Origin: Trypanosoma brucei
Lineage: Eukaryota
Direction: 5' to 3'
DNA length: 64,000 nucleotides
Assembly: GCA_000002445.1 (NCBI GenBank)
Contig: CM000208.1
Span: forward strand, 1,664,001 to 1,728,000
The notes beneath the pieces were generated by a model. It ran no database searches. It worked only from the letters and a program-made list of their open reading frames with translations, and was not told where the DNA came from. Below, one piece after another: positions 23,889 to 39,902 of this stretch. The number at the start of each line of letters is the position of its first letter. The first letter of the stretch is position 1. The position numbers were made by a program, and so were the translations under genes.

Positions 23889-25415
23889 ATGGCTGGTGCG
23901 GAACAACGACAATTTCACAGCGTAGAGGAAGTTAGCGTAGAGTTAGGTCGCGCATCACTGCATGCTTCTTGGGGTTTCAAGACATATGACGGTGTCTGCC
24001 CCCTTCGTGTACGTGATGTAGCAGCGGAGATTCCTGAAGGTGTAAGGCGCGGTGATGAAATAATTGTAATTAACGGAATCCGACCAGGGAGCTATGATGA
24101 GGGAATGTCATTGCTGCATCAGGCGCAGTCAACCGTTCAGCTATGCGTTCGTCGTAAAGTCAGTGGAAGTAAGTGTGCGACAACAGTTGATGAAGGTGCA
24201 GAACCGCGGGAGTGTGAGTATATTGGTATCGAGCGAAACAGCTGGCGCAATCGAGCCTCACTCCATTCGCTTTCCCCTAGCGCGGAATGGGAGGGCACTA
24301 TATCCCCACAGCAACAACAACGGAAACCTGCGGACCAAACTACTGCAACATCATGTCACCACTCAGAGTCGGGTGTGAGGACGTCTGCACAGCTTGCACT
24401 TGACAAGGTGCTTTTGGCTGCGTGTGGAAAAGACGCACATTGTGAGGACACAATCACTGAAGGTACTACCGACACGGAGGGGCCACCAAGTGGGCCGAGC
24501 AGGGCCCCACTTTCCATTAACAGTCAAGTTGCTGGTATATGGCGAGGCATTTTAACTAGGAAACGGAAGCGTCTTGATGACGCCTCAAGGGATAGCAAAA
24601 ACTACATGGACGTTTGTAGTGTGCTTCCCAAACTTACCCACCAGGTCATTTACGACTGCCAAAACTGCCCCTTTTCAATTGAGGAGGGTTTCGTACCGGA
24701 GTTTCACAAATCTGTCCAGTACATTATGACTGAAAGGGCGCTGTCCCAAAAGCACGCCGCCGGTGACGAGGACGGAGACGGGGACGCGAAAGTGATGCTG
24801 GCGCCGGTGAAGGATCGCTCCGACGAAGATTTGTCAGCGGTGATGGCACAGGTAGAGGCTAAGAAGGCTCAGTGCGAAAAGGAAGTGAGCCAACGCGACA
24901 CTGTTGCTGATGTACACCGAATGAAAAAGATGTTGAGCTCGCAGCAAAGTGGCATGCTGAAGGTGGTGGAAAGCCACCGTGAGAGCCTTCTGCAGAAACT
25001 GAGGGAAGATGTGGGTTGGTATCGAGAGACGGAGTGCAGCGCCCAGGACTTCTTTGCTTTGCACTCAAAGGCCATCTCATGGTGTAGGAAAGCGTCGATA
25101 AAGCAATCTCCCGTTGATTCTAAGGTGAAGTACCCCGCATTTCACCATGGAAACCGCGAGGGCCATAAGCGGCACGAGCACCCTCAACTGCTCCCACCAC
25201 CGCCACCGCCACCGCCACCACCGCTGTCACAGCCGCATTTTCCACCCCCACCGTTTGCAGCGGCCCCTTCTAGCGCTGCTGTTGTCCCTGTGAGTACGGT
25301 TTCACCCCGTGGTAGGGTTGGATACGTTGCTCCCCCAGGGTATGCCAGGCGGCTTCCTCAGCACCCTCCTCTTTTTGATGTACGAACGCTGAATGCGACG
25401 TTGTATCACCGGTAG
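23889..25415 (+). CDS. hypothetical protein with N-terminal PDZ-like domain and C-terminal poly-proline tract
   Basis: 'GDEIIVINGIRPGSYDEGMSLLHQAQSTVQLCVRR' resembles a PDZ core (GD.I..vNG.....eA..ll..a...v.L.v.R). The run 'LLPPPPPPPPPPPLSQPHFPPPPF' lies near the C-terminus. Confidence 0.5.
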   Translation: MAGAEQRQFHSVEEVSVELGRASLHASWGFKTYDGVCPLRVRDVAAEIPEGVRRGDEIIVINGIRPGSYDEGMSLLHQAQSTVQLCVRRKVSGSKCATTVDEGAEPRECEYIGIERNSWRNRASLHSLSPSAEWEGTISPQQQQRKPADQTTATSCHHSESGVRTSAQLALDKVLLAACGKDAHCEDTITEGTTDTEGPPSGPSRAPLSINSQVAGIWRGILTRKRKRLDDASRDSKNYMDVCSVLPKLTHQVIYDCQNCPFSIEEGFVPEFHKSVQYIMTERALSQKHAAGDEDGDGDAKVMLAPVKDRSDEDLSAVMAQVEAKKAQCEKEVSQRDTVADVHRMKKMLSSQQSGMLKVVESHRESLLQKLREDVGWYRETECSAQDFFALHSKAISWCRKASIKQSPVDSKVKYPAFHHGNREGHKRHEHPQLLPPPPPPPPPPLSQPHFPPPPFAAAPSSAAVVPVSTVSPRGRVGYVAPPGYARRLPQHPPLFDVRTLNATLYHR

Positions 25416-25786: not shown

Positions 25787-26977
25787 ATGGAAGCTGTTGT
25801 GTATGAGATCGAGCAGGACCCAGATACAAGGTTGCATCGGCTAAGAAATGCTATGCTAGCCTTCGTTTCTGTACCCATGGCTTCTCCTCCTGCAGTGGCT
25901 CTTCTCGTTTCTCTCTCCCTGGACGAACCCCCGGGTTCTTCACGCAAGCAGCAGGATCGGGCCACAACAAAAGCAACGGCGGTCGAGACCCAACTTCGGA
26001 GCGCGTGCGACGATCGAGCCGTGCTTCTGAAGTGGTTGCGAGCCGAGATGAACATCGTGTTAGATATTCCTGTAGCCGCTTCTTTTGAACCTAGTGGGGC
26101 GGAGCAACTCTCCGTACTCTCCACATGGCAACAAGACCAGCACCGGTCCCCCCTGCGTAAAGCGGATATCGTATTACTTTCGTTGCGTAATGTGGCACCG
26201 CTGTGGGATAATCACGAGACTAGTTCATCCCTGCTCGGTCGTCAGCGTGACGTCTGTGCCCCACACCTTGGGTTGTTTCTTCTTGCTCATCAGAGCCTAT
26301 TGCTTGATGTGACCTGCTGTGTCGGAGGTGGAAAGCTGGAGTTGTTATCCCCTGCGGCCTTCAGTCCACTTCGTGCACGGCACATCGCGAAAGGCCGCAC
26401 AGCAGCCGTAGCATTTTACGGCTGTTGGCTGTCGCTAGCAGCAACACCAAGCGGTTTTCACATCTTACAGAAGAGACTTCAGTCACTAAACGAGCACGTT
26501 CTTTCTGCTATGCAGTTGCCCTTGTGCTGTTCTTACGGCGGAAAAGTTGGCAACCTTCAGCATAATTTATCAACGGTACCCAGCCCAGCAGGGGCGGCGC
26601 GACCCCGTGAGGTCCACACGGTTTCCGCACCACTGCTGCCCACGCGTCCATTAAGGGACATATTCAGTCTTCTGGGTTTCCTATTGGCTTGCCCGCACGT
26701 TGACTATTACAGCGAGGCCACTAAGTTTTGTACTCGGGTGGCGACAAGGAGAAAAACTGCATTGGTAACAGAGAACAAGTGTTTCAGCGGCTGCGCGACA
26801 CACAGTGAGGAGGTGGTTAAGAGATATGACAGAAAACGGATGAGAGGCGTGATTCGCGCATCATTGTCCATGCGTTCAAAGCGGCAACAGCACTCAAGTG
26901 CTCCAGATAAAAAACAAACTTTCACACAGCTAATAACATCGGAAGAACCTCTGTGGTATGAAGACTGCGGGTCTTAA
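25787..26977 (+). CDS. hypothetical protein
   Basis: 396-aa ORF in the same orientation and spacing as its neighbours. No recognisable motif. Confidence 0.4.
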   Translation: MEAVVYEIEQDPDTRLHRLRNAMLAFVSVPMASPPAVALLVSLSLDEPPGSSRKQQDRATTKATAVETQLRSACDDRAVLLKWLRAEMNIVLDIPVAASFEPSGAEQLSVLSTWQQDQHRSPLRKADIVLLSLRNVAPLWDNHETSSSLLGRQRDVCAPHLGLFLLAHQSLLLDVTCCVGGGKLELLSPAAFSPLRARHIAKGRTAAVAFYGCWLSLAATPSGFHILQKRLQSLNEHVLSAMQLPLCCSYGGKVGNLQHNLSTVPSPAGAARPREVHTVSAPLLPTRPLRDIFSLLGFLLACPHVDYYSEATKFCTRVATRRKTALVTENKCFSGCATHSEEVVKRYDRKRMRGVIRASLSMRSKRQQHSSAPDKKQTFTQLITSEEPLWYEDCGS

Positions 26978-27257
26978 GAGGGGGTCTCCACAGCACCCAC
27001 TACTTCATCTCTCTGAGATCATATACGCTGTCTCGGATTTTGTCTCCACTGCGGTTTGTTGTTGTTTTTGTGGATGGGGTGACTATCCTCTTTTTCAGCC
27101 ATCCTCCTCACTCCATTGTCATTCTCTTTGTGTTTCTCGAACCTAAATAGAAAAAATACGTTGAGAAGGTGCGTATTTGCTTTTCGGTGAACAAAGGTTT
27201 GTATAAAATAAGCCCGCTTTCTCTTATACATAAGCCCCACTTACCCTTGTAAAAAAG

Positions 27258-28727
27258 ATGATGCAAGGATTTCCCTCCTTAGGGGAAAAGGACCCAGCTG
27301 CCAAGCCACCAGCAGAGGGAAAACCGACCTCAGCTTCGGGAGAGAAACAACCGAGCGAAGCAGTACAGGGAATACCGCTATACCAAGGTGATGGTGATGA
27401 TAAAGAAGGATTGAAACGTTTTGTGGTACAGGGGTATAAGGATGTGTGGGCTGCAATATTATACATTTTATGCATTTTCGCCATCGCTGGAATCGGAGTA
27501 CACGCAATGTGGTCGAGAGGCTCCTCCGAAGAAAAACAAGAGGTTAAAAAAACAACAGCAGAAAATGAGCCTTCAAATTCAAAGTCCCTTTGGAGTGTCT
27601 ACTTTCTTGTTGGTGTGGCTGCTGCCGCTTCCATCGGTGCGGCGTCCGTGTCGTTTCTACTGATGCGTATGTTTCCACGCAAGACAATTCTTTTCGCAAA
27701 CATTGCCGCCATAATTATAAACATCATTTCAGCTTTGCTAGCAATATTATCAGGACACATGGTAAGCGGTATCCTCATGATGACATTATGTGCCCTGCAC
27801 ATAATGTGGTTTTTCTTTGCACGGCACCGAATTCCTTTTGCTGCAGAACTTCTCAAGGCCTCTATCGATGTGTTGTCTGGCTACAAGGCGGTATATTTAT
27901 TCAATGTCATGTTATGTGTTGGTTGCACAGGATTACTTATGCTGTGGGCAAACGCTTTTATGTGGACGTATCAAAGAAGTCAAGCGCAAGATTCATCATT
28001 CTCCGGTATAATTTACCTTTTCCTTATGCTTTTCTTATTTTGGACATCGCAGGTGACAACTAATCTGATGCATGTAACAACTGCTGGACTTACTGCTACA
28101 TGGTACTTTGCTGGTAAGGAGAATATGCCAAAGAATCCCACCCTCGCCTCATTCAAGCGAGGTACCACCACAAGCTTCGGCTCCATTTGCTTTGGGTCAC
28201 TGCTTGTGGCAATTATCCGTCTCATACGGTGGCTCGTGTCAACCGCAGAAGACAGTGAACATGAAATATTACGCTGTGTATTCCTTTGTATTATTGGTTG
28301 TTTGGAGAGGCTGATGGAATACTTCAACACATACGCATTTGTTCATGTTGCCATCTATGGTTGTGGGTACATTGAAGCAGCGAAAATGACATGGGAGTTG
28401 TGTAAACAGTGTGTGTTTTCTGCCCTGTTCAATGACACTCTGATTGATGTAACACTCGGGCTACTTGCTACTTGTGGTTCGCTACTGGTTGGTAGTGTTT
28501 TTGGTTTTCTCTTAAAATCCTGGGCAGCATTCGCGCTTGGTTTTGCCGTTTCTATATTGGTTCACCTCCTCATATTCTCCCCCGTGGGTAGTGCTGTAAC
28601 CACCTTATTCGTATGTTATGCGGAAGTGCCTGAGGGCCTTGAGCACTCATCCCCTGACTTGTACGCGGCTCTTCAGAGAACTGACCAAAACGGCACATCA
28701 AATGGAGCAGCACCTCCACGTGTGTAA
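27258..28727 (+). CDS. CTL/Pns1-like (SLC44 / 'Choline_transpo' family) multi-pass membrane transporter, array copy 1
   Basis: Conserved family core 'ATWYFAGKENMPKNPTLASFKRGTTTSFGSICFGSLLVAIIRLIRW' and 'CLERLMEYFNTYAFVHVAIYGCGYIEAAKMTWEL...NDTLIDVTLGLLATCGSLLVG'. These match Pns1/CTL 'WYF.....P..P...S..R.....GS.AFGSL..AI...IR' and 'CL...L.Y.N.YA....AIYG..F...AK.....L..N.......D.V.D..L..G.L.V'. The protein has ~10 predicted TM helices. The substrate cannot be inferred. Confidence 0.75.
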   Translation: MMQGFPSLGEKDPAAKPPAEGKPTSASGEKQPSEAVQGIPLYQGDGDDKEGLKRFVVQGYKDVWAAILYILCIFAIAGIGVHAMWSRGSSEEKQEVKKTTAENEPSNSKSLWSVYFLVGVAAAASIGAASVSFLLMRMFPRKTILFANIAAIIINIISALLAILSGHMVSGILMMTLCALHIMWFFFARHRIPFAAELLKASIDVLSGYKAVYLFNVMLCVGCTGLLMLWANAFMWTYQRSQAQDSSFSGIIYLFLMLFLFWTSQVTTNLMHVTTAGLTATWYFAGKENMPKNPTLASFKRGTTTSFGSICFGSLLVAIIRLIRWLVSTAEDSEHEILRCVFLCIIGCLERLMEYFNTYAFVHVAIYGCGYIEAAKMTWELCKQCVFSALFNDTLIDVTLGLLATCGSLLVGSVFGFLLKSWAAFALGFAVSILVHLLIFSPVGSAVTTLFVCYAEVPEGLEHSSPDLYAALQRTDQNGTSNGAAPPRV

Positions 28728-29407
28728 AACTTCTTAAGCTCATGCATATAAGGAGGATATGTGTTTGTCTCTCTTCTGCAAAAACTTTCCCTCCCATACC
28801 CAATTTCGCACACTCGCACCGTGTGAAGAAGAGTCAAATATCTTTTGTTTTTGATTCACTATATATAATGCACTGAAGCGTGTGTTATGCATGCAAATAA
28901 ATTGATAACATCGCTGACTCTTCTTTTTGTTCTATTATATTACTCTGTTCGATTTGCTCTTGACTATTTTGTATTTTCTTTCCGTTTCATGTGATGGATG
29001 CGAGGGACATAACCACAACATATTGAATGTGTCGCGGTGTAAACTGCTCTGTTGTGAGCGATCGGTATTGTGTTAGTATTTTTGTTCCAAGTGTTGAGGA
29101 AGTTGAATAGAGTCCTGATGCAGTCCACTCATGCGGTAAGCAGTGATGCGCCTTAGTGTGAGAATTCCTTTGATACTGTGTGATTTGCACACTTCCATTC
29201 TTCTTCGTCACTGGAAGCTGTTGCTACTGCATACTAATGCATCATCATTTCCTATTTCCTTTCCTCTTCCATAATTTTCCATTTTCTCTGTTTTTTAATC
29301 AAACAAATAAGATATATTGCAAGTGTACGCAATTGCTATCCAGCAACAAAGGGCTATAGACACTATTATCTCAGTGATAAGGTATTGTTTATTTCTGAAG
29401 AAGGACG

Positions 29408-30880
29408 ATGAACAAGCAATACGGAACAGAAACAAATCGCTACGACTATGATGTGTGGCAGGAAAATCAGCGGAATTGTCGGCAGGAATGTTCACCACAA
29501 GCTGTGCCGCTACAAGGAATACCGCTATACCAAGGTGATGGTGATGATAAAGAAGAGCTGAAACGTTTTGTGGTACAAGGGTATAAGGATGTGTGGGCTG
29601 CAATATTATACATTTTATGCATTCTTGCAACTATTGGGCTTGGAATATATAATATTGTGAAGCCTGATGCTTCAGGAGAAGAAGAAGAGGAAAGTGTCGT
29701 ATCGGTTAAATCATCTAACCCGTTTTCTGGTGTGTTTAAAAGTGTTTACATTTGGATTGCCGTTGCTGGTGGAATTGCCATAGCTGTGGCGTCGCTTTCC
29801 TTTCTCTTTATGAGGATGTTTCCTCGGAAGATTATTATTGTGGCAAATGTTGTCTCGATTATCATCAATATTGGAGGCGCCGCTGCCGCCATTGTGATGG
29901 GGGTGCTTCCACTTGGCATTGCTTTACTCATTATGTGCGCTATGCACATACTGTGGTTTTACTTTGCACGGCACCGAATTCCTTTTGCTGCAGAACTTCT
30001 CAAGGCCTCTATCGATGTGTTGTCTGGCTACAAGGCGGTATATTTATTCAATGTCATGTTATGTGTTGGTTGTGCGGGGTTTACCATATTATGGGGGTAC
30101 GCAGCTGTTCCTTCACTAGAAACTGCCAGTAACAAAGGTGACAGTGGGGCACTAGCGGTTTTGCTACTTCTTTTCCTTATGTTGGTTTTTTTTTGGTCAT
30201 CTCAAGTTACTGGAAATCTGATGCATGTAACAACTGCTGGACTTACTGCTACATGGTACTTTGCTGGTAAGGAGAATATGCCAAAGAATCCCACCCTCGC
30301 CTCATTCAAGCGAGGTACCACCACAAGCTTCGGCTCCATTTGCTTTGGGTCACTGCTTGTGGCAATTATCCGTCTCATACGGTGGCTCGTGTCAACCGCA
30401 GAAGGTAGTGAACATGAAATATTACGCTGTATATTCCTTTGTATTATTGGTTGTTTGGAGAGTTTGATGGAATACTTCAACACATACGCATTTGTTCATG
30501 TTGCCATCTATGGTTGTGGGTACATTGAAGCAGCGAAAATGACATGGGAGTTGTGTAAACAGTGTGTGTTTTCTGCCCTGTTCAATGACACTCTAATTGA
30601 TGTAACACTGAATCTACTTGTTACTTGTGGTTCGCTACTGGTTGGTAGTGTTGTCGGTCTACTCTTCAGATCCTGGGTAGCATTCGCGCTTGGTTTTGCC
30701 GTTTCTATATTGGTTCACCTCCTCATATTCTCCCCCGTAACCAGTGCTGTAACCACCTTATTCGTATGTTATGCGGAAGTGCCTGAGGGCCTTGAGCACT
30801 CATCCCCTGACTTGTACGCGGCTCTTCAGAGAACTGACCAAAACGGCACATCAAATGGAGCAGCACCTCCACGTGTGTAA
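29408..30880 (+). CDS. CTL/Pns1-like transporter, array copy 2
   Basis: Same conserved core as copy 1. Distinct N-terminus 'MNKQYGTETNRYDYDV' and a unique TM2-4 segment. Confidence 0.75.
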   Translation: MNKQYGTETNRYDYDVWQENQRNCRQECSPQAVPLQGIPLYQGDGDDKEELKRFVVQGYKDVWAAILYILCILATIGLGIYNIVKPDASGEEEEESVVSVKSSNPFSGVFKSVYIWIAVAGGIAIAVASLSFLFMRMFPRKIIIVANVVSIIINIGGAAAAIVMGVLPLGIALLIMCAMHILWFYFARHRIPFAAELLKASIDVLSGYKAVYLFNVMLCVGCAGFTILWGYAAVPSLETASNKGDSGALAVLLLLFLMLVFFWSSQVTGNLMHVTTAGLTATWYFAGKENMPKNPTLASFKRGTTTSFGSICFGSLLVAIIRLIRWLVSTAEGSEHEILRCIFLCIIGCLESLMEYFNTYAFVHVAIYGCGYIEAAKMTWELCKQCVFSALFNDTLIDVTLNLLVTCGSLLVGSVVGLLFRSWVAFALGFAVSILVHLLIFSPVTSAVTTLFVCYAEVPEGLEHSSPDLYAALQRTDQNGTSNGAAPPRV

Positions 30881-31579
30881 AACTTCTTAAGCTCATGCAT
30901 ATAAGGAGGATATGTGTTTGTCTCTCTTCTGCAAAAACTTTCCCTCCCATACCCAATTTCGCACACTCGCACCGTGTGAAGAAGAGTCAAATATCTTTTG
31001 TTTTTGATTCACTATATATAATGCACTGAAGCGTGTGTTATGTATGCATTTTACCGGCTTCACCATGATAAACCACATACTTGATGTAGTAGGTGAAATT
31101 AGATGCCGCAGTATCTGGTCGTGTGTAGCAGTAAATATATTAATAAATAACGACTCTTTATTATCGTAACTGCGCAAAAAGTGTTTAACATGAGCGATAT
31201 TTTTTATGATACGTACGACATTATCGTGAGCGATCGGTATTGTGTTAGTATTTTTGTTCCGTGTGTTGAGGAAGTTGAATAGAGTCCTGATGCAGTCCAC
31301 TCATGCGGTAAGCAGTGATGCGCCTTAGTGTGAAAATTCCTTTGATACTGTGTGATTTGCACACTTCCATTCTTCTTCGTCACTGGAAGCTGTTTCTACT
31401 GTATACTAATGCATCATCATTTCCTATTTCCTTTCCTCCTCCATCATTTTCCATTTTCTCTGTTTTGTAATCAAACAAATAAGATATATTGCAAGTGTAC
31501 GCAATTGCTATCCAGCAACAAAGGGCTATAGACACTATTATCTCAGTGATAAGGTATTGTTTATTTCTGAAGAAGGACG

Positions 31580-33052
31580 ATGAACAAGCAACACGGAACA
31601 GAAACAAATCGTTACGACTATGATGTGTCGCAGAAGGATCGGCGAAATTCTGATTCTCGGGAGTGTTCACCACATGCTGTGCCGCTACAAGGAATACCGC
31701 TATACCAAGGTGAAGGTAATAATCAAGAAGGATTGAAACGTTTTGTGGTACAAGGGTACAAGGATGTGTGGGCTGCAATATTATACATTTTATGCATTCT
31801 TGCAACTATTGGGCTTGGAATATATAATATTATGCGGAAGGATTCTTCGATGAAGGATGTAGAAAGCACTAATACAACAGCAGAAAATGAGCCTTCAAAT
31901 TCAAAGTCCCTTTGGAGTGTCTACTTTCTTGTTGGCGTGGCTGCTGCCGCTTCCATCGGTGCGGCGTCCGTGTCGTTTCTACTGATGCAGAAGTTTCCAC
32001 GCAAGACAATTCTTTTTGCAAACATTGCTGCCATAATTATAAACATCATTTCAGCTCTTTTGGCGTATCGATCAGGCTATATTGTGGCTTCTGCTGTAAT
32101 GATGACATTATGTGCCCTGCACATACTGTGGTTTTACTTTGCACGGCACCGAATTCCTTTTGCTGCAGAACTTCTCAAGGCCTCTATCGATGTGTTGTCT
32201 GGCTACAAGGCGGTATATTTATTCAATGTCATGTTATGTGTTGGTTGCACAGGATTACTTATACTGTGGGCAAACGCTTTTATGTGGGCGTTTCGGAGGG
32301 TTAAATGGGAGACATCCGCTTCTTTCGGGTGGCCTCTGCTTGTGTTCCTTATGCTTTTCTTATTTTGGACATCGCAGGTGACAACTAATCTGATGCATGT
32401 AACAACTGCTGGACTTACTGCTACATGGTACTTTGCTGGTAAGGAGAATATGCCAAAGAATCCCACCCTCGCCTCATTCAAGCGAGGTACCACCACAAGC
32501 TTCGGCTCCATTTGCTTTGGGTCACTGCTTGTGGCAATTATCCGTCTCATACGGTGGCTCGTGTCAACCGCAGAAGACAGTGAACATGAAATATTACGCT
32601 GTATATTCCTTTGTATTATTGGTTGTTTGGAGAGTTTGATGGAATACTTCAACACATACGCATTTGTTCATGTTGCCATCTATGGTTGTGGGTACATTGA
32701 AGCAGCGAAAATGACATGGGAGTTGTGTAAACAGTGTGTGTTTTCTGCCCTATTCAATGACACTCTGATTGATGTAACACTCGGGCTACTTGCTACTTGT
32801 GGTTCGCTACTGGTTGGTAGTGTTTTTGGTTTTCTCTTAAAATCCTGGGCAGCATTCGCGTTTGGTTTTGCCGTTTCTATATTGGTTCACCTCCTCATAT
32901 TCTCCCCCGTGGGTAGTGCTGTAACCACCTTATTCGTATGTTATGCGGAAGTGCCTGAGGGCCTTGAGCACTCATCCCCTGACTTGTACGCGGCTCTTCA
33001 GAGAACTGACCAAAACGGCACATCAAATGGAGCAGCACCTCCACGTGTGTAA
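31580..33052 (+). CDS. CTL/Pns1-like transporter, array copy 3 (mosaic of copy-2-type N-terminus and copy-1-type middle)
   Basis: N-terminus 'MNKQHGTETNRYDYDV' is copy-2-like. The middle 'TTAENEPSNSKSLWSVYFLVGVAAAASIGAASVSFLLM' is identical to copy 1. The C-terminal half is identical to copy 1. Confidence 0.75.
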   Translation: MNKQHGTETNRYDYDVSQKDRRNSDSRECSPHAVPLQGIPLYQGEGNNQEGLKRFVVQGYKDVWAAILYILCILATIGLGIYNIMRKDSSMKDVESTNTTAENEPSNSKSLWSVYFLVGVAAAASIGAASVSFLLMQKFPRKTILFANIAAIIINIISALLAYRSGYIVASAVMMTLCALHILWFYFARHRIPFAAELLKASIDVLSGYKAVYLFNVMLCVGCTGLLILWANAFMWAFRRVKWETSASFGWPLLVFLMLFLFWTSQVTTNLMHVTTAGLTATWYFAGKENMPKNPTLASFKRGTTTSFGSICFGSLLVAIIRLIRWLVSTAEDSEHEILRCIFLCIIGCLESLMEYFNTYAFVHVAIYGCGYIEAAKMTWELCKQCVFSALFNDTLIDVTLGLLATCGSLLVGSVFGFLLKSWAAFAFGFAVSILVHLLIFSPVGSAVTTLFVCYAEVPEGLEHSSPDLYAALQRTDQNGTSNGAAPPRV

Positions 33053-33725
33053 AACTTCTTAAGCTCATGCATATAAGGAGGATATGTGTTTGTCTCTCTT
33101 CTGCAAAAACTTTCCCTCCCATACCCAATTTCGCACACTCGCACCGTGTGAAGAAGAGTCAAATATCTTTTGTTTTTGATTCACTATATATAATGCACTG
33201 AAGCGTGTGTTATGCATGCAAATAAATTGATAACATCGCTGACTCTTCTTTTTGTTCTATTATATTACTCTGTTCGATTTGCTCTTGACTATTTTGTATT
33301 TTCTTTCCGTTTCATGTGATGGATGCGAGGGACATAACCACAACATATTGAATGTGTCGCGGTGTAAACTGCTCTGCTGTGAGCGGTCAGTATTGAGTTA
33401 ATATTTTTGTTCCGTGTGTTGAGGAAGTTGAATAGAGTCCTGATGCAGTCCACTCATGCGGTAAGCAGTGATGCGCCTTAGTGTGAAAATTCCTTTGATA
33501 CTGTGTGATTTGCACACTTCCATTCTTCTTCGTCACTGGAAGCTGTTGCTACTGCATACTAATGCATCATCATTTCCTATTTCCTTTCCTCTTCCATAAT
33601 TTTCCATTTTCTCTGTTTTGTAATCAAACAAATAAGATATATTGCAAGTGTACGCAATTGCTATCCAGCAACAAAGGGCTATAGACACTATTATCTCAGT
33701 GATAAGGTATTGTTTATTTCTGAAG

Positions 33726-35243
33726 ATGACGCAAAAGGGGTACGTCGGAGTTCCTGAGGAACCATACAGGTCTAAATTTACTCCTGAGGTGGGACCTTAT
33801 TATGGATTTGAAGGAGAAGGAACACATGCTGTGCCGCTACAAGGAATACCGCTATACCAAGGTGAAGGTAATAATCAAGAAGGATTGAAACGTTTTGTGG
33901 TACAAGGGTATAAGGATGTGTGGGCTGCAATATTATACATTTTATGCATTCTTGCAACTATTGGGCTTGGAATATATAATATTTGTCAGCAGGGATTGCG
34001 TAGTTTAATATCTGCTGATGTAGTAAATATTTTTTGGGCTTGTAATGATGATAGTTGTATTGACTCGGTGTGTCTTTTCTTTCTTCTTGCTTTTGCTTTT
34101 TCAGTTATTGTATGTTTGTCCTCTTTGTCGTTGATGAAACGTTTTGCTAGCGGAATAATCAAGGGTTGCAACGTTATTTTGCTTATTTTTTATGTCGTTG
34201 CTTTCCTTTTTTCGGTATGGGCACTTAATAACGCTTTTGCTATTCCATGGTTTTGTATGCTGGTTGTGCATTTACTTTGGCTTTTCTTTGCAGGTCGGCG
34301 TATTCCTCTCGCTGCTGAGCTTCTGAAAAGCTCTTCTACTGTGGTATGTAACTACAAAGCACTGTGCGCAGTCAACGCCGTCCTGTTTGGTGCACATGTC
34401 TTTTTCAGTGTTATGTGGGCGTCTGTTATGAAACCACTATATGCGCAGCTGGCGAAGATGGAGTTAAATCCGAGCGCTGGTGGAGCTCGCAATGAGGAAG
34501 ATTTGACTCTCAACATTCTATTCCTAAGCTTGCTTGCTCTGCTGTTCGTCATGTTTTGGGCGACGCAGGTGACAACTAATCTGATGCATGTAACAACTGC
34601 TGGACTTACTGCTACATGGTACTTTGCTGGTAAGGAGAATATGCCAAAGAATCCCACCCTCGCCTCATTCAAGCGAGGTACCACCACAAGCTTCGGCTCC
34701 ATTTGCTTTGGGTCACTGCTTGTGGCAATTATCCGTCTCATACGGTGGCTCGTGTCAACCGCAGAAGACAGTGAACATGAAATATTACGCTGTATATTCC
34801 TTTGTATTATTGGTTGTTTGGAGAGTTTGATGGAATACTTCAACACATACGCATTTGTTCATGTTGCCATCTATGGTTGTGGGTACACTGAAGCAGCGAA
34901 AATGACATGGGAGTTGTGTAAACGGTGTTCTTGTGCTGCTTTGTTTAATGACAGACTGATTGATGTGACATTATTTGTTGCTTCATTTATTGGTTCGCTA
35001 CTGGTTGGTGTTATCGTCGGTCTTGTGTCTGCATCGGGAGGTGGATTTGCGTTTGGTTTCACCGTTTCTATATTGGTTCACCTTTTCATATTCTCCCCCG
35101 TGGGTAGTGCTGTAACCACCTTATTCGTATGTTATGCGGAAGTGCCTGAGGGCCTTGAGCACTCATCCCCTGACTTGTACGCGGCTCTTCAGAGAACTGA
35201 CCAAAACGGCACATCAAATGGAGCAGCACCTCCACGTGTGTAA
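33726..35243 (+). CDS. CTL/Pns1-like transporter, array copy 4 (subfamily B, divergent transmembrane core)
   Basis: The ORF-track start at 33642 reads through the conserved 5' flank. The first Met aligned with the other copies is at 33726 ('MTQKGYVGVPEEPYRSKF'). The 'GEGNNQEGLKRFVVQGYKDVWAAILYILCILATIGLGIYNI' segment is shared with copy 3. Then comes a divergent TM region with 'RRIPLAAELLKSSSTVVCNYKAL'. The invariant core and shared tail follow. Confidence 0.7.
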   Translation: MTQKGYVGVPEEPYRSKFTPEVGPYYGFEGEGTHAVPLQGIPLYQGEGNNQEGLKRFVVQGYKDVWAAILYILCILATIGLGIYNICQQGLRSLISADVVNIFWACNDDSCIDSVCLFFLLAFAFSVIVCLSSLSLMKRFASGIIKGCNVILLIFYVVAFLFSVWALNNAFAIPWFCMLVVHLLWLFFAGRRIPLAAELLKSSSTVVCNYKALCAVNAVLFGAHVFFSVMWASVMKPLYAQLAKMELNPSAGGARNEEDLTLNILFLSLLALLFVMFWATQVTTNLMHVTTAGLTATWYFAGKENMPKNPTLASFKRGTTTSFGSICFGSLLVAIIRLIRWLVSTAEDSEHEILRCIFLCIIGCLESLMEYFNTYAFVHVAIYGCGYTEAAKMTWELCKRCSCAALFNDRLIDVTLFVASFIGSLLVGVIVGLVSASGGGFAFGFTVSILVHLFIFSPVGSAVTTLFVCYAEVPEGLEHSSPDLYAALQRTDQNGTSNGAAPPRV

Positions 35244-35916
35244 AACTTCTTAAGCTCATGCATATAAGGAGGATATGTGTTTGTCTCTCTTCTGCAAAAA
35301 CTTTCCCTCCCATACCCAATTTCGCACACTCGCACCGTGTGAAGAAGAGTCAAATATCTTTTGTTTTTGATTCACTATATATAATGCACTGAAGCGTGTG
35401 TTATGCATGCAAATAAATTGATAACATCGCTGACTCTTCTTTTTGTTCTATTATATTACTCTGTTCGATTTGCTCTTGACTATTTTGTATTTTCTTTCCG
35501 TTTCATGTGATGGATGCGAGGGACATAACCACAACATATTGAATGTGTCGCGGTGTAAACTGCTCTGTTGTGAGCGGTCAGTATTGAGTTAATATTTTTG
35601 TTCCGTGTGTTGAGGAAGTTGAATAGAGTCCTGATGCAGTCCACTCATGCGGTAAGCAGTGATGCGCCTTAGTGTGAAAATTCCTTTGATACTGTGTGAT
35701 TTGCACACTTCCATTCTTCTTCGTCACTGGAAGCTGTTTCTACTGCATACTAATGCATCATCATTTCCTATTTCCTTTCCTCCTCCATCATTTTCCATTT
35801 TCTCTGTTTTTTAATCAAACAAATAAGATATATTGCAAGTGTACGCAATTGCTATCCAGCAACAAAGGGCTATAGACACTATTATCTCAGTGATAAGGTA
35901 TTGTTTATTTCTGAAG

Positions 35917-37470
35917 ATGACGCAAAAGGGGTACGTCGGAGTTCCTGAGGAACCATACAGGTCTAAATTTACTCCTGAGGGGGGACCTTATTATGGATTT
36001 GAAGGAGAAGGAACACATGCTGTGCCGCACAAGGGAATACCGCTATACCAGGTGAAGGTTAATATCAAAAAGGGATTGAAACGTTTTGTGGTCAAGGGTA
36101 TTAGGGATGTGTGGGCTGCAATTTAATACATTTATGCATTTCTTGCAACTATTGGCTTTGCGTGGTATAATACTTTTTCTCAAAATTTTTCTGAAATTAT
36201 ATAGGATAGTGTTGGAAAGTTATTCTGGCGCAGTTCTGACGAATGCTTTACTGTTTTTCTCTCTGTTCTTTTCTTTGTTTCTTCTGTCAGTTCAGTAATT
36301 TTATCCTTGTTTTCTTTATCGTTGATGAAGCGCTTTCCACATGATATGATCATCACGGCAAACCTTCTATTCTTTGCCGTGTGCATTGTTGGTTTTTTGT
36401 TGTCTATTCTTTGGGGAAATCTTTATTTACTTCTTTTATGTTTGGGTCTTTTTATTGTGCATTGGTTATGTTTTACGGAGTTGCGGAACCGCGTTCCATT
36501 CGCTGCTGAGCTTCTGAAAAGCTCTTCTACTGTGGTATGTAACTACAAAGCACTGTGCGCAGTCAACGTCGTCCTCTTTGGTATGTTTACCCTTTTTCTG
36601 GTTTTGTGGTGCTCCGCTTTCTCTGCACTGAGCAATGTGTTGAGTAAACAACCAGACCCGAGCAGTGGTGTGAGTGGTAAACGAGGCAATTCATTTTTGA
36701 TTATTTCTGTATATTTACTGCACCTAATGTTGCTGTTTGTCATGTTTTGGGCGACGCAGGTGACAACTAATCTGATGCATGTAACAACTGCTGGACTTAC
36801 TGCTACATGGTACTTTGCTGGTAAGGAGAATATGCCAAAGAATCCCACCCTCGCCTCATTCAAGCGAGGTACCACCACAAGCTTCGGCTCCATTTGCTTT
36901 GGGTCACTGCTTGTGGCAATTATCCGTCTCATACGGTGGCTCGTGTCAACCGCAGAAGACAGTGAACATGAAATATTACGCTGTATATTCCTTTGTATTA
37001 TTGGTTGTTTGGAGAGTTTGATGGAATACTTCAACACATACGCATTTGTTCATGTTGCCATCTATGGTTGTGGGTACACTGAAGCAGCGAAAATGACATG
37101 GGAGTTGTATAAACGGTGTTCTTGTGCTGCTTTGTTTAGTTGTTTTTTTGTTGACGCTATGTTGTGTCTATTTGCAGTACTAAGCGCCCTTCTTGTTTGT
37201 GCTGTTGTTTGTACTGCTTATGGTTTAGTCTTTGATTTATCGTTTGGTATTTTGCATATTACCGCTGAAATCTTCGTATTCAGTTTTGGTGTTTGTATGT
37301 TGGTTCACCTCTTCGTCTTTTCTTCCGTAACCAGTGCTGTAACCACCTTATTCGTATGTTATGCGGAAGTGCCTGAGGGCCTTGAGCACTCATCCCCTGA
37401 CTTGTACGCGGCTCTTCAGAGAACTGACCAAAACGGCACATCAAATGGAGCAGCACCTCCACGTGTGTAA
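35917..37470 (+). pseudogene. CTL/Pns1-like transporter, array copy 5, disrupted by frameshifts in the N-terminal third (probable pseudogene or sequencing-error-containing copy)
   Basis: The copy-4-type start 'MTQKGYVGVPEEPYRSKFTPE' (35917) runs only to 36126. The frame resumes at 36307 with a subfamily-B middle 'RVPFAAELLKSSSTVVCNYKALCAVNVV' and the invariant core. The 36000-36310 interval shows multiple substitutions/indels relative to copy 4. Confidence 0.6.
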
Positions 37471-38107
37471 AACTTCTTAAGCTCATGCATATAAGGAGGA
37501 TATGTGTTTGTCTCTCTTCTGCAAAAACTTTCCCTCCCATACCCAATTTCGCACACTCGCACCGTGTGAAGAAGAGTCAAATATCTTTTGTTTTTGATTC
37601 ACTATATATAATGCACTGAAGCGTGTGTTATGTATGCAAATAAATTGATAACATCGCTGACTCTTCTTTTTGTTCTATTATATTACTCTGTTCGATTTGC
37701 TCTTGACTATTTTGTATTTTCTTTCCGTTTCATGTGATGGATGCGAGGGACATAACCACAACATATTGAATGTGTCGCGGTGTAAACTGCTCTGTTGTGA
37801 GCGGTCAGTATTGAGTTAATATTTTTGTTCCGTGTGTTGAGGAAGTTGAATAGAGTCCTGATGCAGTCCACTCATGCGGTAATAGGAGTGACATTCCAAT
37901 GTTTGTACATTATTTGTGTCGTTTTAAATTTATTACGTCTTTTTTTTTTTTGTGTGTGTGTGTGCTTCTTGTCTTTCTGATGTTGTGGTGATGTCTTCTA
38001 TCTGTTTTTTTTTCAGTTTCTATTCATTGCTTAATATTGTTTTTTTACTTCTTTTTTATTGTTGGTGTAGATACGGATTGTAGAAGTCGTGTTGTTGGTC
38101 TGCCTGA

Positions 38108-38761
38108 ATGCGTGCGCTGTTTGGCGGTTTTGTCTTTGTTGTTGGTAACGATGTGCCGCAAGAGGTGCTTTCTCTAGTCGTTGCTTGTGGGGGTCGAGTG
38201 TGCAGGGAACTCACAGCTGCCACTACGCATGGCTTAGTTGTTGGACCTGAGTGCGGGGATTCTATTGATGTTGAACAATTACGCGGCCTGCGGATTCCAA
38301 TACTTCGAACTCATTGGATACGTGCGTGTGTAGCTGCTTTACGTATTTTGCCGATGAAAGGGGCAGCTGCTGCGTTCGACCCTTTTCTTTTTGATTCTTT
38401 ATTGTTTACAACTACGATGATGCGATGTGACCTGAAGGATCGTGTTGCTGCTCTTATTATTTTTTTGGGAGGTTCCTATTCTCCTCATCTTACCATCAGC
38501 ACTGATGTAGTGCTGGTTGGAGATGATGCGGTGGAGTCAATTAGTGGGAGTGATTGCGTTGTTGACGTTTCGCTTGTTGATAAGTCGCATCGTGGTCCCG
38601 CGAAACCTTTGGGTGCTGCAAATGCGGGCGTTAAGCGTGGTGTGCGTAGCTCAAAGTTAAAGCTGGCCGCAAGTCGCTCAATTCCATGTGTGAATTTGGT
38701 TTGGTTACAAAAGTGTATTTCCACTGGACAGGTGCATCTTCCCGTGACTGGGGGGTTGTGA
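38108..38761 (+). CDS. hypothetical protein with two BRCT-like domains
   Basis: The first module 'LFGGFVFVVGN....THGLVVG........IPILRTHWIRACV' and the second 'LFDSLLFTTT...DRVAALIIFLGGSY.......VVLVGDD......IPCVNLVWLQKCISTG' both follow the BRCT pattern. That pattern is a hydrophobic core, a G/GG turn, and a C-terminal W..xC. Confidence 0.45.
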   Translation: MRALFGGFVFVVGNDVPQEVLSLVVACGGRVCRELTAATTHGLVVGPECGDSIDVEQLRGLRIPILRTHWIRACVAALRILPMKGAAAAFDPFLFDSLLFTTTMMRCDLKDRVAALIIFLGGSYSPHLTISTDVVLVGDDAVESISGSDCVVDVSLVDKSHRGPAKPLGAANAGVKRGVRSSKLKLAASRSIPCVNLVWLQKCISTGQVHLPVTGGL

Positions 38762-39902
38762 TGGTGCCTAGGGCCATTATTTATTATTTTTTTTACATTA
38801 GATATTACCATAGATCTTTTAATTGTGCTTTCTGTTTCGTACGTTTTATTAAGTTTCTTTTTCATTTCGTAAGCTGGTGTTCTGTTTTGAACATGTACTT
38901 TGCGGCACAAAGATTATCGTTGAAGAAAGTGTGTTTTGTACTTTTCGTTAAGTTATTATTCTTGTTGAGAGCTTAGCGACGCGTATCGTACAGAAAGTTT
39001 GCTAACTTTTCCACCACTGGTGTTGATGAATGGAGCAGCCGGGCTTGTTTGCACAGGGGGTGTGATGTTGACGTGTGCCTAGATATTAGATTGTGGATTT
39101 TCCTAGAAAAGAGAAAGGTTTGTATGCGGTGGAAGTGTCTGATGCGCGGTTTCGACCAGCGGGCCGACATTTGACAGAAGAGATTCTTCAGAGCTATTTA
39201 TTCCCGATTGAAGAGTTTCAGTTGTTTTATTTCTTTTTTAAAGTTTCATCTCTCTTTTTCTTCAGTGTGCGGTTCCCTTCTTCTCAGTTGACTTTCGGTG
39301 ACTCTGTTTCATTGCGCCCTTCTCGGTTATGTTGCTTCGTGCATATCCGTTGTTTCTTTTTTCTCCCCTTCTCTTGTCATCTTGCTTTGACTAGTTTCAT
39401 TCACAGGAAGGTTGATAATCGTCTCCACCCCGTTTTTTTTTTTGTGTTACTCATCATTTCGGAGGGGAATTGCTCATGTAACGGGGTCTCCGTTTAAAAG
39501 CGCTTCTTTTTTTTTTAAAAAAAACTCTACATTTCCTTTTTGTATTGAATGTTGTCGTTGGTTTCAACTGCCTTTCTCTTCTGTATTGCTGGGGACTTTT
39601 ATTCGTTTGTGAACTTTTTTTTTGTTTTCGGGCCCGTTTAGAAGGAAAGAAAAAAGGGAACTATATTTCTGTGTAGGCAGACGGGCGGGCTCACCACCGC
39701 AGATTGAGGCCGCGGTGATTGGGACTTGGCAAGCACCCTAAGGAAAGGCTGTCAACAAAATAGTTGTAATAAAGCCGAAACATTTGTGTGTGTGCGTGAG
39801 AGAAGGGGGGGGGAAACAGAAGAGGAGGCACTTAGAACAATAGTAAAAGCATCGTAGGGGAAACGGGTGAGGGGTTTGTGATAACAGGACGCCGGCAACC
39901 AA

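What the first reader, a model, noticed from the sequence alone, without database searches (positions are those of the whole stretch)
27258..35243. Patchwork (mosaic) architecture of the array paralogs implies segmental gene conversion
Reading the translations side by side, segments are shared in different combinations. N-terminus: copies 2 and 3 both start 'MNKQ.GTETNRYDYDV'; copies 4 and 5 both start 'MTQKGYVGVPEEPYRSKFTPE'; copy 1 is unique. The loop motif is 'GDGDDKE' in copies 1 and 2 and 'GEGNNQE' in copies 3 and 4. First TM end: 'ILCILATIGLGIYNI' in copies 2, 3 and 4 versus 'ILCIFAIAGIGVHAMW' in copy 1. The TM2-3 segment 'TTAENEPSNSKSLWSVYFLVGVAAAASIGAASVSFLLM' is identical in copies 1 and 3 but absent from copy 2. 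'SPVTSAVTT' is shared by copies 2 and 5 versus 'SPVGSAVTT' in copies 1, 3 and 4. No simple duplication tree explains this. It looks like short-tract gene conversion or recombination shuffling cassettes between neighbours. That process is mechanistically reminiscent of mosaic gene formation in trypanosome surface-antigen families.
Basis: seen in the sequence. Interest (0 to 1): 0.75.

Follow-up and report, generated by a model that had tools for sequence, protein, structure and literature searches.

The report
Mosaic transporter gene array, already described
Five neighbouring copies of a choline-transporter-like gene on Trypanosoma brucei chromosome 10 are patchworks made by gene conversion and unequal crossing-over, but this array was already tested for recombination in papers from 2007 and 2010.

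Summary
The window is T. brucei brucei TREU927 chromosome 10. It holds five head-to-tail PF04515 (choline-transporter-like) genes; copy 5 has two in-frame stops.

Copy 3's closest relative changes along the gene:
- copy 2 at nt 1-120 (84% identity);
- copy 4 at nt 148-306 (1 mismatch in 159 nt);
- copy 1 over most of the rest (97-100%).

Synonymous divergence within a single pair runs from 0.00 to saturation. My tests agree: PHI p≤0.0005, long identical tracts with global p≤0.003 for six pairs, and conflicting segment trees with 97-100% bootstrap.

Orthologous arrays show cassettes at different positions:
- 927 copy 1 carries GDGDDKE, while gambiense and equiperdum copy 1 carry GEGNNQE;
- gambiense lacks copy 3;
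- equiperdum lacks copy 5, and its copy 4 is a hybrid;
- dinucleotide variants in the core sit in different copies in different strains.

It is not new. This array is "Tb103 / Tb10.70.0040 (DUF580)" in Jackson 2007, which recorded one conversion event. Jackson et al. 2010 reported PHI p<0.001 and 6 GARD breakpoints for it against T. b. gambiense, under the heading "subspecies-specific sequence mosaics". Interest is low.

The parts
27258..28727 (+). Copy 1 (489 aa, XP_822914). It has a unique 5' flank and N-terminus, and its body is mostly copy-3-like. The loop motif GDGDDKE lies at 27387-27407.
   Evidence: PF04515 E=4e-67. Exact match to TREU927 XP_822914. Copy 1 and copy 3 are identical over 28020-28727 apart from a few sites. 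The motif differs from gambiense and equiperdum copy 1.
29408..30880 (+). Copy 2 (490 aa, XP_822915). It is the most distinct of the 1-3 group in the variable half. It is identical to copies 1 and 3 at 29962-30072.
   Evidence: Its variable region is as close to a T. congolense paralogue (58%) as to copies 1 and 3 (58-59%).
31580..33052 (+). Copy 3 (490 aa, XP_822916), the main chimera. 31580-31672 is copy-2-like (84%). 31673-31831 is copy-4-identical (1 mismatch in 159 nt). 31883-32062, 32093-32272 and 32345-33052 are copy-1-like. Old islands lie at 31796-31882, 32063-32092 and 32273-32341.
   Evidence: The same structure is present in the independent T. b. equiperdum assembly (9 differences in 1473 nt). 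The copy is absent from T. b. gambiense DAL972.
33726..35243 (+). Copy 4 (505 aa, XP_822917). Its N-terminus is shared with copy 5. 33825-33983 is shared with copy 3. The core 34564-34887 and the tail 35086-35243 are homogenised with all copies.
35917..37470 (+). Copy 5. It is a pseudogene in this assembly, with in-frame stops at 36124 and 36202 inside an aberrant tract at 36029-36250. It is intact (517 aa) in T. b. gambiense.
28728..29407 (+). Intergenic repeat 1 (3'UTR of copy 1 plus 5'UTR of copy 2). It is about 94-100% identical to the repeats after copies 3 and 4.
30881..31579 (+). Intergenic repeat 2. It is like the others except for a private block of about 180 nt (approximately 31048-31225) in the 3'UTR of copy 2.
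   Evidence: The block is conserved after copy 2 in gambiense and equiperdum.
33053..33725 (+). Intergenic repeat 3.
   Evidence: Its 5'UTR SNPs group as {1,3}|{2,4} and then {1,4}|{2,3}, so the non-coding DNA is also mosaic.
35244..35916 (+). Intergenic repeat 4.
37471..37885 (+). Truncated terminal repeat (3'UTR-homologous part after copy 5). The array homology ends here.

Best explanation
This is a tandem array of five paralogous choline-transporter-like (PF04515) membrane-protein genes in a polycistronic unit of T. brucei chromosome 10. It evolves by partial concerted evolution. Homologous recombination between misaligned or neighbouring units takes two forms: non-reciprocal gene conversion with tracts of roughly 10-750 bp, and occasional unequal crossing-over. 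This recombination repeatedly copies sequence from one unit into another.

Some blocks are kept essentially identical in all copies: the intergenic/UTR DNA, the central core (about aa 261-380 of copy 1) and the C-terminal tail. Other blocks escape homogenisation and stay anciently divergent: the N-terminal tail, the TM1-TM6 region with its loops, and a TM9-10 patch. Conversion tracts that end inside the gene produce chimeras, most clearly copy 3 (copy 2-like, then copy 4-identical, then mostly copy 1-like). Unequal crossing-over changes copy number between strains.

What is shown: the mosaic structure, the statistical recombination signal, the alternation of old and young segments, and the differences between strains. 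What is inferred: the molecular pathway (RAD51-type homologous recombination), the direction of each transfer, and selection as the reason the divergent islands persist.
For: Identity and setting:
- Exact protein matches to TREU927 chromosome 10. All genes lie on the + strand. All five copies match PF04515.

Mosaicism:
- Nearest-neighbour switches in sliding-window identity.
- Split patterns change along the gene.
- PHI p<=0.0005. PHI remains significant on well-aligned blocks only and on 13 sequences from three strains.
- Identical tracts are significant for six pairs.
- Segment bootstraps are (2,3) 97%, then (1,3) 100%.
- Parsimony segmentation beats every one of 500 site permutations.

Conversion rather than constraint:
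- pS for one and the same pair runs from 0.00 to about 1.0 between segments.
- Copy 1-copy 3 islands have pS 0.70-0.83 next to tracts with pS 0.02-0.14.
- 3'UTR and intergenic DNA is 94-100% identical between units.

Concerted core against retained variable region:
- T. brucei copies and T. congolense copies are each monophyletic (98-100%) in the core and tail, but not in the variable region (33% and 39%).

Ongoing process:
- Orthologue differences are clustered: B1/G1 6 of 11 within 64 nt, p=0.003; B4/E4 36 of 48 within 95 nt, p=0.0002.
- The donor-like sequence is visible in a paralogue.
- The same dinucleotide variants sit in different copies in different strains, and an equiperdum-only variant is shared by the neighbours copy 3 and copy 4.
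- Copy number differs between strains.

Independent published tests of this array:
- Jackson 2007 recorded a GENECONV/SiScan event with voucher reads.
- Jackson et al. 2010 reported PHI p<0.001, 4 LRT breakpoints and 6 GARD breakpoints.
Against: - The variable half is 40-60% identical at nucleotide level. Alignment there is uncertain and homoplasy is high, so the four-gamete Rmin of 55 is not interpretable.
- Only 2-3 breakpoints change the tree topology. The remaining evidence is branch-length heterogeneity.
- With copy 5 and the variable region removed, only 23 informative sites remain and PHI is not significant (p=0.33).
- All three assemblies are collapsed diploid consensus sequences of a tandem repeat. 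Some single-site 'hopping' variants could therefore be allelic mixing or assembly choices.
- Donor and recipient directions cannot be assigned from these data.
Confidence: 0.9

Rival explanations
1. The mosaic is an assembly artefact. Reads from near-identical tandem units, or from the two homologous chromosomes, were joined wrongly and created false chimeras.
For: Tandem repeats are hard to assemble, and both Jackson papers warn about this. Copy 5 contains a 222-nt tract that looks like poor base-calling. Copy numbers differ between assemblies.
Against: The chimeric architecture of copy 3 is reproduced in an independent T. b. equiperdum chromosome-scale assembly with 9 differences in 1473 nt. 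The architectures of copies 1, 2 and 4 are reproduced in three assemblies. The junctions lie between blocks that are 40-60% divergent, which are easy to place uniquely. Jackson 2007 checked individual voucher reads for the event in this array.
Confidence: 0.04
2. There is no recombination. A single duplication tree with strongly uneven selective constraint and mutation rate along the gene mimics a patchwork.
For: The conserved blocks are the functionally conserved PF04515 core, which is also conserved across species. The (4,5) split is stable along nearly the whole gene.
Against: Constraint cannot make synonymous sites and UTRs identical (pS 0.00-0.02). It also cannot make copy 3 closest to copy 2, then copy 4, then copy 1 with high support. 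PHI and the tract tests are permutation-based and reject it. Core trees group paralogues by species.
Confidence: 0.02
3. The recombination is the same, but the array is an adaptive diversification device. Selection preserves old, divergent cassettes, chiefly the predicted extracellular loops. Conversion recombines them to make functionally or antigenically new transporter isoforms, in the manner of a contingency locus.
For: The three old islands between copies 1 and 3 fall on predicted external loops if the N-terminus is cytosolic (inference from hydropathy and K/R distribution). Strain-specific isoforms exist. T. vivax keeps its copies 99% identical, so diversification is lineage-specific. 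Copy 2 has a private 3'UTR block that could give it separate regulation.
Against: dN/dS in the islands is 0.19-0.27, not above 1. The variable patch at aa 395-440 is within predicted membrane helices. There are only five cassettes and no archive. There is no expression or localisation evidence here, and the topology is only predicted. Jackson 2007 interprets such patterns as a balance of homogenisation and divergence, not as a dedicated mechanism.
Confidence: 0.1

Closest known systems
T. brucei tandem gene array 'Tb103' (Tb10.70.0040, DUF580) in Jackson 2007 (BMC Evol Biol 7:54) and in Table 2 of Jackson et al. 2010 (PLoS NTD 4:e658)
   Same: It is the same locus. The record gives chromosome 10, unit CDS 1470 nt, 11 TM, DUF580 (to my recollection the former Pfam name of PF04515; not checked here), and coordinates 1641891-1649912. 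One gene-conversion event was recorded with voucher reads. The 2010 paper lists 4 copies against 4 copies, 3 shared isoforms and 1 unique isoform in each subspecies, PHI p<0.001 and 6 GARD breakpoints. This matches what I see: copy 3 is unique to brucei and intact copy 5 is unique to gambiense.
   Different: The papers give only summary rows for this array. The segment map was worked out here, not reported there. That covers the copy 3 chimera, the old and young islands, the equiperdum hybrid copy 4, the motif swap in copy 1, and the contrast between the concerted core and the retained variable region against T. congolense.
Other T. brucei arrays with chimeric duplicates: phosphoglycerate kinase PGK-A/B/C, hexose transporters THT1/THT2, ISG65, GRESAG4 adenylate cyclases, amino-acid transporters
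   Same: All are head-to-tail arrays in polycistrons. They have homogenised UTRs or blocks next to divergent blocks, and chimeric middle copies made by conversion. In Jackson 2007, 21 of 47 arrays contained chimeras and 76 events were counted.
   Different: The protein family is different (PF04515, substrate unknown). The contrast here is unusually sharp: about 25-35% amino-acid identity in the variable region against 94-100% in the core.
Segmental gene conversion forming mosaic VSG genes in T. brucei
   Same: It is the same organism and presumably the same homologous-recombination machinery. Short tracts from several donors are combined into one gene.
   Different: VSG mosaics are assembled somatically during an infection. 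Donors come from a large subtelomeric archive, mostly of pseudogenes, and the product is placed in a telomeric expression site and selected by host antibody. The array here is a germline-stable, five-member, core-chromosome locus flanked by housekeeping genes. Its architecture is largely shared by three subspecies.
CTL/SLC44 and yeast Pns1 family (PF04515)
   Same: There is a full-length PF04515 match (E about 1e-67). About 10-11 hydrophobic segments are predicted. Sequence similarity to solved yeast Pns1 is E=5.5e-32 and to human CTL1 is E=2.5e-7.
   Different: The loop between TM1 and TM2 is short. Choline transport is not established: a review reports that RNAi of the T. brucei CTL candidates did not affect choline uptake (PMC4010794, citing Macedo et al. 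2013, which I did not read).

Membership tests
Pfam PF04515 choline-transporter-like (CTL/SLC44/Pns1) proteins | Significant full-length match to the family profile above the curated cut-off | tested here: met
   All five copies score 218-232 bits against a cut-off of 26.9, covering profile positions 1-326.
Pfam PF04515 choline-transporter-like (CTL/SLC44/Pns1) proteins | Polytopic membrane protein with about 10 transmembrane helices | tested here: met
   A hydropathy scan finds 8-11 segments per copy. Jackson 2007 lists 11 TM. There is homology to solved Pns1 and CTL1.
Pfam PF04515 choline-transporter-like (CTL/SLC44/Pns1) proteins | Transports choline | not testable with these tools
   A review states that RNAi of the T. 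brucei CTL candidates did not affect choline uptake. The substrate is unknown.
Tandem gene array under partial concerted evolution with inter-copy gene conversion (sensu Jackson 2007) | Head-to-tail copies on one strand with repeated intergenic DNA | tested here: met
   There are five units with 2153-2227 nt spacing, all on the + strand, with intergenic repeats 94-100% identical.
Tandem gene array under partial concerted evolution with inter-copy gene conversion (sensu Jackson 2007) | Phylogenetic signal inconsistent along the unit, with significant recombination tests | tested here: met
   PHI p<=0.0005, tract test global p<=0.003 for six pairs, and conflicting bootstraps of 97-100%. Published PHI and GARD results agree.
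Tandem gene array under partial concerted evolution with inter-copy gene conversion (sensu Jackson 2007) | Paralogues cluster by species (concerted evolution) | tested here: met
   Met for the core and C-tail: 100% for T. brucei and 98-100% for T. congolense. Not met in the variable region (33% and 39%), hence 'partial'.
Tandem gene array under partial concerted evolution with inter-copy gene conversion (sensu Jackson 2007) | Copy number and isoform content vary between strains | tested here: met
   927 has copies 1-5. Gambiense has 1, 2, 4 and 5. Equiperdum has 1, 2, 3 and a hybrid copy 4. Caveat: copy number in assemblies of tandem repeats can be unreliable.
VSG-type mosaic (segmental) gene conversion system | Subtelomeric or expression-site location with a large silent donor archive | tested here: not met
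   The array sits in a core polycistron between PDZ-domain, BRCT, Sec1 and gamma-tubulin-complex genes. It is syntenic in three T. brucei subspecies and in T. vivax. It has only five members.
VSG-type mosaic (segmental) gene conversion system | Somatic, within-infection assembly of new mosaics under immune selection | not testable with these tools
   This needs time-series expression data. The architectures here are germline and largely shared between subspecies.

The most novel reading that the evidence does not exclude
The anciently divergent islands that survive inside otherwise homogenised copies may be actively protected by selection. These are the predicted external loops between TM1/2, TM3/4 and TM5/6, plus the N-tail. 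On this reading the array works as a small combinatorial store of surface-exposed or specificity-determining cassettes for an orphan transporter family. Strain-specific recombinants (copy 3, the equiperdum hybrid copy 4, the GDGDDKE/GEGNNQE swap) would then be functionally distinct isoforms. A second, smaller possibility is that the 222-nt aberrant tract in 927 copy 5 is a real footprint of error-prone repair and not poor sequence.
Probability: 0.12. Interest if true: 0.45.

Novelty: already known. Interest (0 to 1): 0.15.

Why it matters
It is a clean textbook case of partial concerted evolution. Within a single 1.5-kb gene, blocks that are 100% identical between paralogues, including at silent sites, lie next to blocks more divergent than the orthologues of distant trypanosome species. 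This shows how a parasite without gene-specific promoters can keep dosage-type homogeneity and isoform diversity in the same array. The proteins are orphan membrane transporters that, according to a review, are not needed for choline uptake. The isoform differences could therefore guide substrate-specificity work. The recombination claim itself adds nothing to Jackson 2007 and Jackson et al. 2010, which covered this very array.

Tried and rejected
- **Four-gamete Rmin.** It gave 55. I rejected it as uninformative because the variable half is saturated and recurrent mutation alone gives four gametes.
- **PHI on a reduced set.** On copies 1-4 with the variable region removed it gave p=0.33 from only 23 informative sites. 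This is underpowered, not evidence against recombination.
- **Simple unequal crossing-over as the origin of copy 3.** A copy 2 x copy 1 crossover would place the hybrid between copies 1 and 2, not after copy 2. It also would not explain the copy-4-identical tract or the 84% (old) copy 2 affinity. I rejected it in favour of several conversion events.
- **Recent positive selection as the origin of the copy 1-copy 3 difference clusters.** I rejected this because synonymous sites there are saturated (pS 0.70-0.83) and dN/dS is 0.19-0.27.
- **Independent sequence for the aberrant copy 5 tract.** I looked up four possible ORF products by exact sequence and none is in the collection. The question of artefact against real stays open.
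- **Donor for the aberrant copy 5 tract.** I compared it with the other copies of this array in the three strains and saw no matching donor tract; copy 4 matches gambiense copy 5 rather than 927 copy 5 there. No donor was found for the private 3'UTR block of copy 2 elsewhere in the window either.
- **Literature on function.** The search found only a review statement that RNAi of the CTL candidates did not change choline uptake.

Full report
**What the region is**

The window is Trypanosoma brucei brucei TREU927 chromosome 10. Eight ORF products, including the four intact array members, match TREU927 proteins XP_822912-XP_822920 exactly, on a 4,054,025-bp contig. Nearly all long ORFs are on the + strand, as expected for a trypanosomatid polycistronic unit.

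The array has five head-to-tail units spaced 2153-2227 nt apart:

| Copy | Window coordinates | Note |
|---|---|---|
| c1 | 27258-28727 | |
| c2 | 29408-30880 | |
| c3 | 31580-33052 | |
| c4 | 33726-35243 | starts at this ATG; the ORF lister began at an upstream TTG |
| c5 | 35917-37470 | two in-frame stops in this assembly |

All five match Pfam PF04515 (plasma-membrane choline transporter / CTL family) over the full profile, at 218-232 bits against a cut-off of 26.9. They have about 10 hydrophobic segments each. They resemble solved yeast Pns1 (E=5.5e-32) and human CTL1 (E=2.5e-7).

**Check of the observation**

The one exception is that c5 reads SSVTSAVTT, not SPVTSAVTT. At nucleotide level (codon alignment) the nearest relative of c3 changes along the gene:
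- c2 at alignment nt 1-120 (84% identity; c1 and c4 are about 38%);
- c4 at nt 148-306 (1 mismatch in 159 nt);
- c1 for most of nt 361-1617 (92-100% in most windows).

Other patterns stand out. c4 and c5 are 99% identical at the 5' end. c1, c2 and c3 are identical at nt 615-725. All five copies are about 100% identical at nt 900-1200 and from nt 1460 to the stop. The identity continues through about 415 nt of 3'UTR and the rest of the intergenic repeat.

**Is it more than chance or constraint?**

- **PHI.** On 285 informative sites the observed value is 0.174 against a permuted mean of 0.246 (z=-11, p<=0.0005). It stays at p<=0.001 using only well-aligned blocks or only c1-c4. For 13 sequences from three strains it is 0.070 against 0.094 (p<=0.003).
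- **Tract test.** A GENECONV-style test (longest run of concordant polymorphic sites, site-order permutation, global correction) is significant for pairs 1-2, 1-3, 2-3, 2-4, 3-4 and 4-5.
- **Segment trees.** NJ trees give (2,3) 97% at nt 1-120. At nt 121-270 they give (1,2) 95% with c3 and c4 nearly identical. They give (1,3) 100% at nt 271-600, and (2,5) 93% at nt 1441-1614.
- **Parsimony segmentation.** It needs 2-3 topology changes and beats all 500 site permutations.
- **Synonymous divergence.** This rules out constraint as the cause. For c1 against c2, pS is 1.05, 0.27, 0.77, 0.00, 0.79, 0.12, 0.08 and 0.04 in successive segments.
- **Alternating old and young segments.** Within c1 against c3, three clusters of differences (nt 271-360, 541-570, 751-870) have pS 0.70-0.83 and dN/dS 0.19-0.27. 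The tracts between them have pS 0.02-0.14. Old and young segments therefore alternate at least six times in one pair. That requires several conversion tracts of roughly 60-750 bp.

**Related sequences**

I fetched the orthologous arrays from T. b. gambiense DAL972 (L001) and T. b. equiperdum (L002). Gambiense has c1, c2, c4 and an intact 517-aa c5, but no c3. Equiperdum has c1, c2, c3 and c4, but no c5. Orthologous copies differ at only 1-15 sites, except where the differences are clustered:

- **Copy 1 motif swap.** 927 c1 differs from gambiense and equiperdum c1 at 6 of 11 sites within 64 nt (p=0.003). This turns GEGNNQE into GDGDDKE, and the 927 version matches c2 exactly over the motif.
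- **Equiperdum copy 4.** It differs from 927 and gambiense c4 at 36 of 48 sites within 95 nt (p=0.0002). The patch is partly c2-like and then identical to c5 through the SSVTSAVTT region. This fits the loss of c5 by unequal exchange.
- **Core variants.** In the homogenised core, dinucleotide variants occupy different copies in different strains (AC/GT at columns 1061-2, GC/TT at columns 1119-20). A variant found only in equiperdum is shared by the neighbours c3 and c4.

Against other species, the core and C-tail group all T. brucei copies together (100%) and both T. congolense copies together (98-100%). In the variable TM3-TM6 region, T. brucei monophyly has only 33% support. There c2 is as close to one T. 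congolense paralogue (58%) as to c1 and c3 (58-59%), and c4 and c5 are only 25-35% identical to c1-c3. The syntenic T. vivax array has 5.5-kb units that are about 99% identical throughout. The diversified state is therefore not universal.

**Mechanism**

The best-supported account is partial concerted evolution driven by homologous recombination between units. Frequent non-reciprocal conversion keeps the UTRs, the core and the tail identical. Conversion tracts that end inside the gene make chimeras. Unequal crossing-over adds and removes units. Some blocks persist as ancient islands.

The anatomy, the statistics and the differences between strains are shown directly. Three things are inferred: the pathway (RAD51-type recombination), the direction of each transfer, and selection as the reason the islands survive. 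If the N-terminus is cytosolic, the three c1-c3 islands fall on predicted external loops. That topology fits the K/R distribution and is, to my recollection, also the topology reported for CTL proteins (not checked here). It is an inference from hydropathy only.

**Rivals**

- **Assembly chimeras.** Unlikely, because c3's architecture recurs in an independent assembly and Jackson checked voucher reads for this array.
- **Uneven constraint without recombination.** Contradicted by silent-site and UTR identity and by the topology conflicts.
- **An adaptive 'cassette store'.** Not excluded, but it lacks positive evidence (dN/dS below 1, five members, no expression data).

**Comparison with what is known**

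The array is 'Tb103, Tb10.70.0040', annotated as DUF580 (to my recollection the former Pfam name of PF04515; not checked here). The record gives chromosome 10 at 1641891-1649912, a 1470-nt CDS and 11 TM.

- Jackson 2007 (PMC1855330) recorded one GENECONV/SiScan event in it: 165 bp in the 5'UTR, donor copy 3, recipient copy 2, with voucher reads. That paper reports chimeric copies in 21 of 47 arrays.
- Jackson et al. [quoted passage not shown] Its Table 2 lists this array with 4 and 4 annotated copies, 3 shared isoforms, 1 unique isoform in each subspecies, PHI 0.061 against 0.078 (p<0.001), 4 LRT breakpoints and 6 GARD breakpoints.

My segment map and the equiperdum comparison add detail, not a new phenomenon.

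The link to VSG mosaics holds only at the level of homologous recombination. The location, the archive and the somatic-selection features of that system are absent or untestable here.

On function, a review reports that RNAi of the T. brucei CTL candidates did not affect choline uptake (PMC4010794). The substrate is unknown.

**Verdict**

The novelty rating is 'already known', and interest is low (0.15). The most novel reading still open is selectively maintained loop cassettes that make functional isoform diversity. I give it a probability of about 0.12.

Noticed in passing
window 36029-36250 (inside copy 5, 35917-37470): Both in-frame stops of copy 5 (36124 and 36202) lie in a 222-nt tract that differs from the T. 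b. gambiense orthologue at 48 codon-aligned positions. The other 1330 nt differ at 4. After nucleotide re-alignment, the tract resolves into five compensating 1-nt deletion/insertion pairs 5-10 nt apart plus roughly 20 substitutions, and the substitutions are rich in transversions. This looks like low-quality Sanger base-calling in the reference, or an error-prone repair patch. Copy 5 may not really be a pseudogene in strain 927.
   Followed up: partly
window about 31048-31225 (3'UTR of copy 2): Copy 2 carries a private block of about 180 nt in its 3'UTR. It replaces about 160 nt that all other units share. The block is conserved after copy 2 in gambiense (L001 11630-12045) and equiperdum (L002 7312-7727). 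No similar sequence occurs elsewhere in the window. Because 3'UTRs control expression in trypanosomes, copy 2 may be regulated separately.
   Followed up: partly
L002 10001-11518 (T. b. equiperdum copy 4) and L002 11519-12153: Equiperdum lacks copy 5. Its copy 4 has a 3' patch (nt 1286-1380 and beyond) that is partly copy-2-like, partly unlike any sampled copy, and then identical to copy 5. This is consistent with unequal crossing-over between copy 4 and an unsampled copy 5 allele.
   Followed up: partly
L001 (T. b. gambiense) 11474-12165: Gambiense goes directly from copy 2, with its private 3'UTR block, to copy 4, and copy 3 is missing. Copy 3's N-terminal region is old (84% identity to copy 2, pS 0.27). 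This therefore looks like loss or assembly collapse in gambiense, not a recent gain in brucei.
   Followed up: partly
L003 4151-16680 (T. vivax syntenic array): T. vivax has at least three CTL copies in 5.5-kb units, each also holding a 222-aa ORF. The units are about 99% identical over their whole length, and some copies are truncated ORFs (372 and 228 aa). The array is fully homogenised, unlike in T. brucei and T. congolense.
   Followed up: partly
window 28728-29407, 30881-31579, 33053-33725, 35244-35916 (5'UTR parts): SNPs in the last 200 nt or so before each ATG group the intergenic repeats as {1,3}|{2,4} and then {1,4}|{2,3}. The non-coding DNA is therefore mosaic too. The array repeat begins about 230-260 nt upstream of copies 2-5, but copy 1 has no such upstream homology. 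The left edge of the repeat lies inside copy 1's coding sequence, near nt 100.
   Followed up: partly
window 26001-40000: The array is more AT-rich (GC 0.40-0.42) than the flanking genes (0.47-0.53). It has a strongly negative AT skew, meaning a T-rich coding strand.
   Followed up: no
window 25160-25415 (C-terminal part of ORF 23889-25415): The upstream PDZ-domain protein ends with a run of prolines (PPPPPPPPPPP) and a proline-rich tail. I did not examine it.
   Followed up: no
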